This document shows, piece after piece, positions 6,001-9,000 of a stretch of DNA of 64,000 nt. Within the stretch, counting starts at the first letter, position 1, and each line of letters begins with the position of its first letter. This DNA comes from Candidatus Omnitrophota bacterium (GTDB lineage: Bacteria; Omnitrophota; Omnitrophia; Omnitrophales; Aquincolibacteriaceae), in NCBI GenBank assembly GCA_035352955.1, contig DAOPYQ010000001.1, positions 37,536 through 101,535 on the forward strand, read 5' to 3'. Position numbers: made by a program.

Positions 6001-9000
6001 GTTCTCCCGGGCGGAGCGAAAGGGCGAAAAAGGTGTGGCTGATCGTGGCGATTTCACTCAATGTTTTTGCCCTGTTGTTTTTTAAGTACGCCAATTTTTT
6101 TGTGGATCAGATTGAACCATTGCTTCGTTTCGCAGGCAGGGGAAGGCCTTCCTGGTATGGCGTGGCCCTTCCCCTCGGAATATCGTTCATCGCCTTTCAT
6201 AAGATCAGCTTTGTAGTGGATCTCTACAAACGGCGGATTACTCCCCCGGCCAATTTTAAAGACGCACTTCTCTACATCCTTTTTTTTCCGCAGCTGATCG
6301 CCGGTCCGATCATCCGGTATCATGAGATCGGTCCGCAGATCGAAACCCGTACGCATAGCACGGAGGATTTTTTGATCGGGTTTTTCCGGTTCTCCCGCGG
6401 TCTTGGCAAAAAAGCGCTCTTAGCGGACCCGGCGGGCGTCATTGCCAATGCGGTCTTCGGCATGGCTCCCCAGAGCCTTCCGTTTTCTTACGCCTGGATA
6501 GGAGTCATCGCTTATGCGGTTCAGATCTATTTTGATTTTTCGGGATATTCTGACATGGCCATAGGTCTCGGCCGGCTTGTGGGATTTCGTTTTCCGGAGA
6601 ATTTTAATCAACCTTATACGGCGAAAAGTATTACGGAATTCTGGAAACGGTGGCATATCACGCTTTCCAACTGGATGCGGCTTTATCTTTACATCCCGAT
6701 GGGGGGGAATCGGGTTGAACCGTGGCGGATGTACCTGAATTTATGGATCGTCTTCCTGCTCTCGGGTCTTTGGCACGGGGCGGCCTGGACCTTTGTTTTA
6801 TGGGGAGCTTACTACGGCTTTTTTCTCACGTTGGAAAAATTTTGCGAGAGGCGCGGCTGGACGTTTTCCGTTCCCGGGGTGATCAAAAATCTTTGGACAT
6901 TCCTGGTTGTTCTGAACGCCTGGGTGTTATTCCGGGCTCCCACGATCGATTATGCGCGCTTGTTCCTGGGGCGAATGTACGGGATGCTGTCGCAATCGCA
7001 GCCGACCAGCGAGCCTTTTGCCCTGATCTTTCCGCCGCATGATCTGGCCGTGACACTGATCGGCTTGCTGATCGCTATGATCCCTTTGCCGGAAGCAGTC
7101 CGGCGTTTGGGGGCGATCCGGGATTCTTCGATCCTTGACATGACCCGGTGGGGTTTTGGCGTTCTTTTGTTTTGGGTGGCCCTTTCGGACATCCTGGCTT
7201 CCGGGGTCAGCTCGTTTCTTTATTTTCGTTTTTGAGAGAATTTTTGATAAGCAATACAACCATAAACTTGGGCGCTGTATGAAAAAGATAGCGTTGCTTT
7301 TGCCGGTCATCATCGTTCTGATCCTCTGCGAGATGGGTTTTCGCGCTTCTTATATTCAGGAACAAGATCGATTGCGTTTAAAGTATGAGGGGAGATCGCT
7401 GTGCCTTGAAAGTGACGAGGCTTTGATCTATACGGCGATCCCGGGGCGTTGTGGTGCGAATTCGCAAGGTTATTTTGACGCCGAACACTCTTTTGTGAAG
7501 CCGAAGGATGTTTTCAGGATCGTTATTATCGGAGATTCCATCGCCCAGGGGCAGGGAGTGGGACGGGAGGAATCTTTTGGCCGGGTCCTGGAAAAAAAGC
7601 TGAATGCCGCGCAGAATAAAAAAAAGGTTGAAGTGATCATCTTGGCCCTGACGGGTTATTCGACGAGCCAGGAATTAATCCTGCTGCGGGAGCAGGCGTT
7701 TCGGTATGATCCGGACATGATCCTCTGGAGTTATGTCTTGAATGATCCCGCCCATCCCTTTTTTCACGATGCGAACGGCGAATTAGGCCGGTATTTTTAT
7801 AAGCCGCGAAGCTACCTGCTGCATTATGTTTCCGCCCGGTTTTTCAATGCCCGAGAACGGATGAGATGGAAGGCCCTTCATTCCGAGGGCATGGAGTTCC
7901 ATGTTTTTTTAAATACGGTTTATTGGGACGAGGTTAAGGCCGATCTCGGGGCGATAGGCAAAGTTTCAAAAAAGAAAAAAATACCCGTTCTGTTTGTGAT
8001 CCATCCCGTGTTCAAGAAAGACGGAATGTTTGACCGGTATCCGTTGACTGTAGTCCACGAAAAATTGAAAGAGTATGTTCTTCTCCAGGGGTTACGGCCG
8101 CTTGATCTGCTAGGGGCCTATCAAGGCTACCGCTCCGAACAACTGAATCAGGGCCCCGAGGATCCCTGGCATCCGAACGCGAAGGGGCATGAAGTGGCCG
8201 CAGAGGCTATTTCTGAGGCTGTCCTGAAGGGCGATTATATAAAATGATCTATCCACAATCTTTTCGAGAACGGATATGCTGTCTCTTCCTGTCTGATTGC
8301 CGCGTCGGAAGGTGAGAGGTTCGAGCAAGCATCCTCGGTCGGGGGTTGGAGAATGCAGCGCGTTTTATTGTGTGCGGCGAAACTTAGGGAGGCGACATGA
8401 AGGTAGTGATTCTTGCGGGAGGTCTTGGGACGAGACTTAGCGAAGAGATGGAGGTTTGTCCGAAACCGATGATCGAGATTGCCGGGAAGCCTATCCTTTG
8501 GCACATTATGAAGTCCTATTCTTATTATGGATATAACGACTTTGTGATCCTTCTCGGGTATAAGGGGTACGTGATCAAAGAGTACTTTTCGAATTATTTC
8601 CTTCACCAAAGCGATGTCACGATCGGCCATATCGGGACCTCGAGTTTTTATCCGCCCCATCATATCACCACAGGGGAAGGCGGGGCCGTCTATAGGATGT
8701 CAACCTGGGGCAGAGCGCGGCACTTCCTAAAAAAAGAAGCAAGGGCTTAAATGATTAAATTTCTGGATCTTGAAAAAATTAATATGCAACATGCTGTGGA
8801 GTTCAAGCGAGCGGCTGCCGAAGTTATTGACTCTGGCGGGTATGTGCGAGGTGAAAGGGGTAGGCGCTTTGAAATTAACCTCGGAAATTTTATCGGCGTA
8901 ACGCATGCCGTTGGAGTTGCGAACGGCTTGGATGCCTTGCGTTTAATCCTAAGAGCTTATATCGATATGGGGAGCATGCGGGAAGGCGATGAAGTCATTG

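What the first reader, a model, noticed from the sequence alone, without database searches (positions are those of the whole stretch)
8268..8750. Evolutionary scar: a GT4 fragment plus a ddhA'(rfbF)-ddhC'(E1-dehydrase-like) chimeric pseudogene, remnants of a CDP-3,6-dideoxyhexose pathway displaced by the dTDP-Fdt pathway.
The 117-codon ORF starts as a bona fide glucose-1-phosphate cytidylyltransferase (~85 aa). It then jumps into a DegT-family active-site block with His where the PLP-Lys should be ([14 protein letters not shown]), which is the hallmark of CDP-4-keto-6-deoxyglucose-3-dehydrase E1/ColD-type enzymes. An internal deletion fusing ddhA to ddhC would produce exactly this. Just upstream lies a ~70-bp GT4 gene fragment homologous to the motif region of the 842-aa GT. 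Together they indicate recent replacement of the sugar-pathway module within this locus (serotype-switch-like recombination).
Basis: partly seen in the sequence, partly recalled or inferred. Interest (0 to 1): 0.65.

Follow-up and report, generated by a model that had tools for sequence, protein, structure and literature searches.

The report
Decayed sugar-pathway gene remnant (scar)
A 117-codon reading frame in the surface-sugar gene cluster of an uncultivated Omnitrophota bacterium is the dead, fused leftover of two genes of a dideoxy-sugar pathway, next to a crumb of a glycosyltransferase gene; such scars of cluster remodelling are well known in other bacteria, so the case is clean but ordinary.

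Summary
ORF 8397-8750 is a chimera.
- Codons 1-76 are the N-terminus of glucose-1-phosphate cytidylyltransferase (RfbF/DdhA; TIGR02623 positions 1-77, E 2e-39).
- Codons 75-100 are the active-site block of CDP-4-keto-6-deoxyglucose 3-dehydrase (RfbH/DdhC/E1; NF011936 positions 206-236, E 8e-11). It has His where aminotransferases have the PLP-binding Lys.
- The two parts overlap on Thr75-Ile76, which both families carry. This points to a roughly 2.3-kb in-frame deletion at a short microhomology (ACGATCG), removing the rest of rfbF, all of rfbG and the first half of rfbH.
- Codons 101-117 could not be assigned to any gene.

Just upstream, 8266-8343 is a two-piece remnant of a paralogue of the 842-aa GT4 gene, with its own 161-nt deletion at a GTTCG repeat.

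Six assemblies carry the identical scar, so it is not an assembly artefact. No other protein in the databases shares this architecture.

New context: the scar sits at the left edge of an 8.1-kb segment (fdt genes, two GT2 genes, DUF7024) bracketed by 976-bp direct repeats (94% identical) of a GDSL esterase gene.

No relative with an intact ddh block was found. "Displaced by the Fdt pathway" is therefore plausible but unproven. This is a new member of a known kind and of low interest.

The parts
8266..8323 (+). GT4' remnant, piece 1. It is homologous to window 3321-3378 of the 842-aa GT4 gene and encodes ..CLIAASEGE(R)F, the region of the conserved acidic motif.
   Evidence: blastx gives 14/20 aa. 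blastn gives 32/36 nt. The gapped local score is 58 against a shuffle maximum of 46.
8319..8343 (+). GT4' remnant, piece 2. It is homologous to window 3535-3559. It overlaps piece 1 on GTTCG (8319-8323), which marks a 161-nt, frame-shifting deletion at a 5-nt direct repeat.
   Evidence: blastn gives 22/25 nt, E 0.005, collinear with piece 1. The frame arithmetic comes from the coordinates.
8387..8392 (+). Shine-Dalgarno-like GGGAGG, 4 nt upstream of the ATG of the chimeric ORF.
   Evidence: Read directly from the sequence.
8397..8624 (+). rfbF' (ddhA'): codons 1-76 of a glucose-1-phosphate cytidylyltransferase gene. It keeps the GGxGTRL motif and carries three substitutions at near-invariant sites (T18M, K/R21C, G29A).
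   Evidence: TIGR02623 positions 1-77, E 2e-39. PDB 1tzf. 73-88% aa identity to 51 metagenomic rfbF genes. Per-column comparison with 152 homologues.
8619..8625 (+). Deletion junction. ACGATCG encodes Thr75-Ile76, which is shared by RfbF (..SDVTI|DL) and by RfbH (..TGTI|GHIGT). This is the inferred microhomology.
   Evidence: RfbF consensus. RfbH representatives P0362 and P0364 carry [19 protein letters not shown]. Nucleotide alignments to rfbF genes end at 8620-8625.
8619..8696 (+). rfbH' (ddhC'): codons 75-100, [26 protein letters not shown]. These equal RfbH/E1 positions about 207-234. His88 occupies the place of the PLP-binding Lys.
   Evidence: NF011936, E 8e-11. PDB 3bcx, E 3.5e-7. An RfbH profile I built matches its positions 209-234 at 53 bits. 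L016 RfbH is 88% identical over this segment.
8697..8750 (+). Unassigned tail (MSTWGRARHFLKKEARA plus TAA). It may be further-deleted rfbH sequence (an MxxWGR echo, or a C-terminal RxF[LV]KK echo), or the 3' end of the gene that once preceded fdtB.
   Evidence: No profile match. Permutation tests give p 0.06 against RfbH C-termini and p 0.42 against whole RfbH proteins.
8751..9884 (+). Intact FdtB/QdtB-type sugar 3-aminotransferase. Its ATG directly follows the pseudogene's stop (TAAATG). It is the first gene of the low-GC3 fdt cassette.
   Evidence: Pfam DegT, E 5e-98. PDB 7n63 and 5u1z (E about 1e-128) and QdtB 3frk (E 2e-105). GC3 is 0.49.
7278..8253 (+). Left copy of a 976-bp direct repeat (the GDSL/SGNH esterase gene plus 6 nt). 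It ends 12 nt before the GT4' remnant.
   Evidence: blastn gives 919/976 identities with no gaps to 16382-17357.
16382..17357 (+). Right copy of the 976-bp direct repeat. It closes the 8.1-kb segment 8254-16381.
   Evidence: Differences between assemblies fall only inside the two copies.

Best explanation
The ORF is a non-functional gene remnant.

Inferred ancestral layout. An ancestral or donor operon read GT4 gene, rfbF (ddhA), rfbG (ddhB), rfbH (ddhC), and onward. This is the first part of the CDP-3,6-dideoxyhexose pathway.

First deletion. A deletion of about 2.3 kb between two short identical stretches (ACGATCG, encoding Thr-Ile in both genes) joined rfbF codon 76 to about codon 208 of rfbH, in frame. 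It removed the sugar-binding two thirds of RfbF, all of RfbG and the first half of RfbH.

Further loss. At least one more event cut rfbH after about codon 234. That left 17 unassignable codons ending directly at the start of the FdtB aminotransferase gene. The upstream GT4 gene was reduced to 78 nt by other deletions. One of these is a 161-nt loss at a GTTCG repeat.

Why it cannot be an enzyme. The product has only 76 residues of a nucleotidyltransferase fold and 26 residues of a roughly 440-residue PLP/PMP enzyme.

What it may still do. It keeps a strong ribosome-binding site and ends at TAAATG. It is therefore probably still translated as a leader that hands ribosomes on to fdtB. This would explain why the surviving deletions are in frame.

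What is shown and what is inferred. Shown: the two homologies, the exact breakpoint, the shared Thr-Ile, the uniqueness of the architecture, the odd substitutions, and reproducibility across assemblies. Inferred: the ancestral gene order, the microhomology mechanism, the number of deletions, and any residual leader role.
For: - Two separate family matches lie in one frame, both confirmed against solved structures.
- RfbF agreement stops after Ile76. The RfbH profile starts at Thr75.
- Genuine RfbH proteins carry [19 protein letters not shown].
- L016 has rfbF-rfbG-rfbH contiguous on one strand, with 2,279 nt between the equivalent points.
- No protein among 5.8 billion clusters or 1.84 billion representatives shares the architecture. 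The only full-coverage hits are P0001 (this ORF itself) and P0361, a 42-aa call of its 3' end.
- Three replacements sit at sites that are 95-99% conserved or never carry that residue in 152 RfbF sequences.
- No rfbG, ddhD or other ddh gene is found among the window ORFs scanned.
- The GT4' remnant has its own microhomology deletion.
- The sequence is identical in six assemblies.
- There is no Rfam match, and the antisense ORFs have no Pfam match.
Against: - No ancestral or intact allele was found, so the gene order, the microhomology and the number of events are reconstructions.
- The tail (codons 101-117) is unexplained.
- The frame has stayed open for 117 codons, and most conserved RfbF residues are intact. 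This could mean a very young scar, or some selection on the ORF.
- Only 64 kb of the genome was available, so an intact ddh set elsewhere cannot be excluded.
Confidence: 0.85

Rival explanations
1. In-place displacement. A resident ddh operon downstream of the GT4 gene was overwritten from its 3' side by an imported dTDP-Fdt cassette. The left recombination junction lies in the unassigned tail at about 8697-8750.
For: - A compositional step falls at the ORF's end. The pseudogene has GC3 0.58, like the neighbouring resident-type genes (0.56-0.63), whereas fdtB to GT2b have GC3 0.34-0.49.
- The nearest FdtB homologues, at 70-73% identity, are largely from Bacteroidota.
- The tail matches neither rfbF nor rfbH.
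Against: - It does not explain why a second, decayed GT4 3' end and a second GDSL gene copy bracket the segment.
- Central genes of polysaccharide clusters commonly have lower GC than the sugar-pathway genes, so the GC step is not specific (my own knowledge).
- No intact ancestor was found.
- In the two FdtB relatives examined, the upstream gene tails do not resemble the tail here.
Confidence: 0.35
2. Insertion model. The whole 8.1-kb segment (GT4 3' end, rfbF ... fdt genes, GT2 genes, GDSL) came from a related lineage's version of the cluster. It integrated by a single crossover in the GDSL gene, or by homology-facilitated illegitimate recombination, which duplicated GDSL. The redundant GT4' and ddh genes then decayed by deletion. 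Under this model the ddh genes arrived together with the fdt genes and were not displaced by them.
For: - 976-bp direct repeats at 94% identity lie exactly at both ends of the segment.
- The GT4' remnant starts 12 nt after the left repeat and is about 89% identical to the resident GT4 gene. That is a similar order of divergence to the repeats.
- The GT4' remnant's reading frame ends in an ATGA overlap with the rfbF' start, as expected of a native GT4-rfbF junction.
Against: - No donor-type cluster was found. The nearest GT4_842 homologue is 56% identical and is followed by a GT2 gene, not rfbF.
- The GC3 difference between the scar and the fdt genes would then have to predate the transfer.
- The duplicated GDSL could equally be an ordinary paralogue.
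Confidence: 0.35
3. Assembly or sequencing artefact: a chimeric join of reads from rfbF and rfbH of different places or organisms.
For: The source is a metagenome-assembled genome. The junction lies on a short shared sequence. Contigs from other assemblies break near the GDSL repeats.
Against: - The scar is 100% identical in contigs from a second NCBI MAG, one JGI assembly, one ENA assembly and two single-run Logan assemblies. Contigs span it on both sides.
- All differences between assemblies lie inside the GDSL repeats, not in the scar.
Confidence: 0.02
4. A functional small protein. For example, a nucleotide-binding mini-domain or regulator that happens to combine an RfbF N-terminus with a DegT-like peptide, or a mutated ordinary Lys-type aminotransferase fragment.
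For: The reading frame is open, has a good ribosome-binding site and is translationally coupled to fdtB. The GGxGTRL loop is retained.
Against: - The architecture is unique to this clone.
- Only 76 of about 255 residues and 26 of about 440 residues are present.
- There are unusual substitutions at invariant sites.
- The segment is 88-92% identical to RfbH proteins, but 36% identical to the adjacent Lys-type enzyme.
Confidence: 0.03

Closest known systems
Gene remnants in Salmonella enterica and Yersinia pseudotuberculosis O-antigen gene clusters. Examples are the wzy remnants in Salmonella groups B1 and D1, the H-repeat remnant at the D1/E junction of group D2, and the tyv remnant in the Y. 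pseudotuberculosis Abe module (PMC3715488, PMC5399914).
   Same: These are also truncated, non-functional pieces of sugar-pathway or processing genes. They lie at the boundaries of exchanged modules inside a surface-polysaccharide cluster and arose by serial deletions. They include modules built on ddhD-ddhA-ddhB-ddhC.
   Different: Here the remnant is an in-frame fusion of two different ddh genes. The host is an uncultivated Omnitrophota bacterium with an ABC-transporter-type (wzm/wzt/WbdD-like/WbdA-like) cluster. No intact sister cluster is available to prove the history.
RfbF/DdhA glucose-1-phosphate cytidylyltransferase (TIGR02623; PDB 1tzf).
   Same: Residues 1-76 align position for position, with 73-88% identity to real enzymes.
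   Different: It lacks positions 78-255. It scores 135.6 bits against a cut-off of 300.25. It has three odd substitutions.
RfbH/DdhC, the CDP-6-deoxy-L-threo-D-glycero-4-hexulose 3-dehydrase E1 (NF011936; PDB 3bcx).
   Same: The 26-residue active-site block is present, with His in place of the PLP-binding Lys. It is 88-92% identical to metagenomic RfbH proteins.
   Different: Everything else of the roughly 440-residue enzyme is missing. This includes the WGRDCxC...C cysteine segment that follows this block in real RfbH proteins.

Membership tests
RfbF/DdhA glucose-1-phosphate cytidylyltransferase (TIGR02623) | N-terminal nucleotide-binding loop LAGGxGTRL and conserved PKPM...WHIM segment | tested here: met
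   Residues 1-76 align to profile positions 1-77.
RfbF/DdhA glucose-1-phosphate cytidylyltransferase (TIGR02623) | Full-length domain of about 255 residues, with a score at or above the curated cut-off (300.25 bits) | tested here: not met
   135.6 bits. Only profile positions 1-77 of 255 are covered.
RfbH/DdhC/E1 3-dehydrase (NF011936) | His in place of the Schiff-base Lys in the SFYPxHH(I/M)TxGEGG block | tested here: met
   The block reads [14 protein letters not shown]. 3bcx (His220) scores better than 3bb8 (H220K). 59 of 69 representative hits carry HH and none carries Lys.
RfbH/DdhC/E1 3-dehydrase (NF011936) | Full-length fold-type I enzyme of about 440 residues, with a score at or above the cut-off (423 bits) | tested here: not met
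   41.3 bits. Only profile positions 206-236 of 440 are covered. My own RfbH profile matches positions 209-234 only.
RfbH/DdhC/E1 3-dehydrase (NF011936) | Cysteine-rich segment after the active-site block (WGRDCxC...C). From my own knowledge this segment binds the [2Fe-2S] cluster. | tested here: not met
   Real RfbH proteins show RDWGRDC(W/V)C. The ORF has WGRARHF with no cysteine.
ColD-type GDP-sugar 3-dehydrase | Closer to ColD than to E1 | tested here: not met
   2gms gives E 1.4 and 3bcx gives E 3.5e-7 for the same 46-aa query.
Pseudogene or gene remnant in a polysaccharide gene cluster | Truncated relative to all homologues, with an architecture not conserved elsewhere | tested here: met
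Pseudogene or gene remnant in a polysaccharide gene cluster | Signs of relaxed constraint | tested here: inconclusive
   Three unusual substitutions in 76 codons. No diverged orthologue exists for a dN/dS test. All assemblies are identical.
Pseudogene or gene remnant in a polysaccharide gene cluster | Partner genes of the pathway (ddhB, ddhD, abe/prt/tyv) absent | tested here: inconclusive
   None among the window ORFs scanned (not every ORF over 120 aa was scanned). The rest of the genome was not available.
Pseudogene or gene remnant in a polysaccharide gene cluster | An intact ancestral allele exists in related genomes at the same position | tested here: not met
   No such locus was found. 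The sampled relatives are too distant for this to count against the model.

The most novel reading that the evidence does not exclude
The scar is not inert, and the cassette may be switchable.

First, the in-frame chimeric ORF may be retained as a translated leader that prevents polarity and couples ribosomes into fdtB.

Second, the 8.1-kb fdt/GT2 cassette it heads, bracketed by 976-bp direct repeats that show signs of gene conversion between assemblies, may be a module that can be excised or re-acquired by homologous recombination. That would let this Omnitrophota lineage switch its surface glycan. The glycan is possibly one transferred to protein by the adjacent STT3/PglB-like enzyme.
Probability: 0.1. 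Interest if true: 0.5.

Novelty: new member of a known kind. Interest (0 to 1): 0.22.

Why it matters
The scar gives base-level evidence that glycan gene clusters in Omnitrophota, a little-studied phylum of uncultivated bacteria, are remodelled by the same processes known from enterobacterial O-antigen loci. These are module exchange followed by microhomology-mediated deletion. It also shows that this lineage, or its donor, once carried genes for a CDP-3,6-dideoxyhexose.

In practice it is mainly an annotation point. The ORF should be marked as a pseudogene and not called an "NTP transferase". One public annotation calls only a 42-aa piece of it. It does not open a new question by itself.

Tried and rejected
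1. Syntenic locus with an intact ddh block. The genome-contig scan with the GDSL protein returned only 33-38% relatives in Polyangia and Chloroflexi. Homologues of the 842-aa GT4 protein drop straight from 100% to 56% identity. The three contexts I examined show no rfbF after the GT4 gene.
2. Close nucleotide relatives of rfbF'. A codon-degenerate pattern scan of metagenome contigs gave 51 rfbF loci, the best at 76% nt identity. They served as comparators (L016) but none is an ancestor.
3. Origin of the tail (codons 101-117). I found no match to an RfbH profile, to the other two reading frames, to the metagenomic loci, or to the ends of the genes upstream of fdtB in two relatives. Permutation tests were not significant.
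4. A second nucleotidyltransferase remnant on the minus strand at 16240-16353. A weak blastx hit (E 0.014) was not supported by Pfam, so I rejected it as chance.
5. Non-coding RNA or an antisense gene in the region. There is no Rfam match and no Pfam match for the four overlapping small ORFs.
6. Promoter and terminator scan. The counts equal the shuffle expectation, so the scan was uninformative.
7. A variant with the cassette deleted (a single GDSL copy). The exact STT3 protein is not on record. All MBOAT-bearing contigs show the same layout or end inside the repeat.
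Full report
**What is at the coordinates**

The + strand carries an ORF at 8397-8750 (117 codons). GGGAGG lies 4 nt upstream of its ATG. Its TAA stop is followed at once by the ATG of the next gene at 8751.

Profile searches split the product into two unrelated parts in one frame.
- Residues 1-77 match positions 1-77 of 255 of TIGR02623, glucose-1-phosphate cytidylyltransferase (RfbF/DdhA), with E 2e-39.
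- Residues 71-101 match positions 206-236 of 440 of NF011936, RfbH (DdhC, the E1 3-dehydrase), with E 8e-11.
- Pfam agrees: NTP_transferase on residues 2-65 and DegT_DnrJ_EryC1 on residues 75-99.

Solved structures give the same picture. The ORF matches 1tzf (RfbF) at E 7e-35 and 3bcx (E1 dehydrase) over residues 207-234. Wild-type E1, which has His220, scores better than the H220K mutant 3bb8. ColD (2gms) is a far weaker match at E 1.4.

**Is the dehydrase block more than chance, and is it a mutated aminotransferase?**

I searched the last 46 residues against 1.84 billion representative proteins with no word filter. This gave 69 hits at E<=1e-3. Of these, 59 carry the SFYPxHH motif and none has Lys at that position. 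Some genuine RfbH proteins (P0362, P0364) read [27 protein letters not shown], which is nearly identical to the ORF. The Lys-type aminotransferase encoded next door matches the segment at only 36% identity over 25 aa (E 0.18).

**The junction**

In an alignment with 152 RfbF sequences, the ORF follows the family up to Ile76. From residue 77 on it carries residues never or almost never seen there. An RfbH profile that I built from 15 RfbH sequences begins to match at Thr75. Thr-Ile is thus common to both parents: RfbF reads ..SDVTI-DL and RfbH reads ..TGTI-GHIGT. The breakpoint lies within ACGATCG (8619-8625). Nucleotide alignments to 36 rfbF genes all end at 8620-8625.

A metagenomic locus, L016, carries rfbF-rfbG-rfbH contiguously on one strand. 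Its RfbH reads [25 protein letters not shown], 88% identical to the remnant. In L016 the two equivalent points are 2,279 nt apart. A single in-frame deletion of about 2.3 kb at a short microhomology is therefore the simplest origin. The mechanism is inferred, because no parental sequence is available.

**The tail**

The RfbH match ends at residue 100. Residues 101-117 (MSTWGRARHFLKKEARA) match nothing.
- The MxxWGR echo of the RfbH motif SMRDWGRD is not significant in a permutation test (p 0.42).
- The RHFLKK echo of some RfbH C-termini is not significant either (p 0.06).

At least one further event therefore truncated rfbH'. What lies in the last 51 nt is unknown.

**The GT4 crumb**

Positions 8266-8323 align to 3321-3378 of the resident 842-aa GT4 gene. 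The core is 32/36 nt identical, and the gapped score is 58 against a shuffle maximum of 46. Positions 8319-8343 align to 3535-3559 at 22/25 nt.

The two pieces overlap on GTTCG, which occurs at both places in the intact gene. This marks a 161-nt, frame-shifting deletion at a 5-nt repeat. The remnant's reading frame ends in a TGA that overlaps the ATG of rfbF' (ATGA). This is the usual look of a native gene junction.

**Not an artefact, not a conserved protein**

The identical scar occurs in the following assemblies:
- a second NCBI MAG contig (GCA_035403665.1, DAONFQ010000010.1), with a further NCBI contig of 396,532 bp also on record as carrying the ORF;
- JGI metagenome 3300025858;
- ENA assembly ERZ27257423;
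- two single-run Logan assemblies.

All differences between these assemblies and the window fall inside the two GDSL repeat copies. The samples therefore hold essentially one clone. This limits population inference but rules out a mis-join.

No other protein in the 5.8-billion-cluster collection or among the representatives covers both halves. The rfbF' part carries three replacements at sites that are 95-99% conserved or never carry that residue: T18M, K/R21C and G29A. That is modest decay. One public annotation calls only a 42-aa piece of the ORF (P0361).

**Context**

The organism is a Candidatus Omnitrophota MAG.

The cluster reads as follows:
- RgpF-like gene, a GT4 gene, wzm, wzt;
- a WbdD-like methyltransferase;
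- the WbdA-like double-GT4 gene (842 aa);
- an AlgX-like gene, an MBOAT gene and GDSL copy 1;
- the scar;
- an FdtB/QdtB-type aminotransferase, a hexapeptide acyltransferase and two FdtA cupins;
- GT2, DUF7024, GT2 and GDSL copy 2;
- an STT3/PglB-like oligosaccharyltransferase on the other strand.

None of the window ORFs I scanned is rfbG, ddhD, abe/prt/tyv, rmlA or rmlB; not every ORF over 120 aa was scanned. The rest of the window is largely housekeeping.

They share 919/976 identities with no gaps, and they bracket the 8.1-kb segment that starts with the scar.

**How it got there**

Two histories fit the data, and I cannot separate them.

- The pseudogene's GC3 (0.58) resembles that of the neighbouring genes (0.56-0.63).
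- fdtB to GT2b have GC3 0.34-0.49.
- FdtB's nearest homologues, at 70-73% identity, are largely from Bacteroidota.
- On this reading, the left edge of an imported cassette could lie in the unassigned tail.

(b) Insertion of a related cluster's segment (GT4 3' end, rfbF ... fdt genes ... GDSL) by recombination in GDSL, followed by decay of the redundant genes.
- This explains the flanking direct repeats.
- It explains a second GT4 3' end that begins 12 nt after the left repeat.
- It explains the similar divergence of the two duplicated pieces (89% and 94%).

I looked for an intact relative through several routes and found none: the genome collection, GT4 homologues and their contexts, a codon-degenerate scan of metagenome contigs, and FdtB relatives.

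**What it does now**

The product cannot be an enzyme. It has 76 of about 255 residues of one enzyme and 26 of about 440 residues of another, and it lacks the cysteine-rich segment that follows the block in real RfbH proteins.

It keeps a good ribosome-binding site and ends in TAAATG. My inference is that it is still translated and passes ribosomes to fdtB. Out-of-frame deletions would have been polar on the fdt genes, which may be why the surviving ones are in frame. This is untested. The promoter and terminator scan was uninformative, and no RNA family matches the region.

**Comparison with what is known**

Gene remnants at module boundaries of O-antigen clusters are well documented. Examples are:
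- wzy remnants in Salmonella groups B1 and D1, produced by serial deletions;
- the H-repeat remnant at the D1/E junction of group D2;
- a substantial tyv remnant in the Yersinia pseudotuberculosis Abe module, whose side-branch modules are built on ddhD-ddhA-ddhB-ddhC (PMC3715488, PMC5399914).

The present case is the same kind of object in a new phylum. Its particular feature is that two ddh genes are fused in frame.

**Verdict**

The chimeric ddhA'::ddhC' pseudogene and the GT4 crumb are real. Displacement by the Fdt pathway is plausible but unproven, and there is a competing insertion model.
- Novelty: a new member of a known kind.
- Interest: low, about 0.2.

Noticed in passing
window 7278-8253 and 16382-17357: A 976-bp direct repeat (94% identical, no gaps) consisting of two copies of a GDSL/SGNH esterase gene. 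It brackets the 8.1-kb fdt/GT2 segment. All differences between public assemblies and the window lie inside these copies. The 24 variants of L002 in copy 2 all equal the copy-1 base. L061 varies at the same positions in both copies. This suggests gene conversion or assembler mixing.
   Followed up: partly
window 455-760 (inside ORF 28-1101): Tandem 21-nt and 63-nt repeats, rich in AEQA/KAEQ heptads, lie in the C-terminal part of the WbdD-like methyltransferase (466 aa in L001). This looks like a coiled coil, reminiscent of the chain-length ruler of E. coli O9a WbdD (my own knowledge). This part has no Pfam hit.
   Followed up: no
window 17408-19927 (- strand): An 839-aa STT3/PglB-like oligosaccharyltransferase (PF02516, E 2e-16; PF21436) lies convergent with the glycan cluster. 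This hints at protein N-glycosylation, or a related en-bloc transfer, in this Omnitrophota lineage.
   Followed up: no
window 8751-16000: The fdtB to GT2b genes have clearly lower GC3 (0.34-0.49) than the flanking cluster genes (0.56-0.63) and the housekeeping genes (0.63-0.71). The FdtB protein's nearest homologues (70-73% identity) are mostly from Bacteroidota. Both points are consistent with horizontal acquisition.
   Followed up: partly
window 10705-11145 and 11135-11545: Two adjacent FdtA-like cupin genes (146 and 136 aa) overlap by 11 nt. The same pairing occurs in locus L009. The gene order here (fdtB first) differs from the relatives examined, where fdtB comes last.
   Followed up: no
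window 3662-8247: The AlgX-like SGNH protein (715 aa), an MBOAT protein and the GDSL esterase form what looks like a polysaccharide O-acetylation module, inserted between the WbdA-like GT4 gene and the scar.
   Followed up: no
window 15999-16381: A 383-nt non-coding gap lies upstream of GDSL copy 2. A weak minus-strand blastx similarity to an NTP-transferase N-terminus (E 0.014 in a tiny database) was not confirmed by Pfam. Other remnants here were not searched for against large databases.
   Followed up: partly
L061 12824-12952 (equivalent to window 8622-8750): In GCA_035403665.1 only a 42-aa ORF (P0361, MGHIGTSS...) is called in place of the 117-aa ORF. Public annotations of this scar are therefore inconsistent.
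   Followed up: yes
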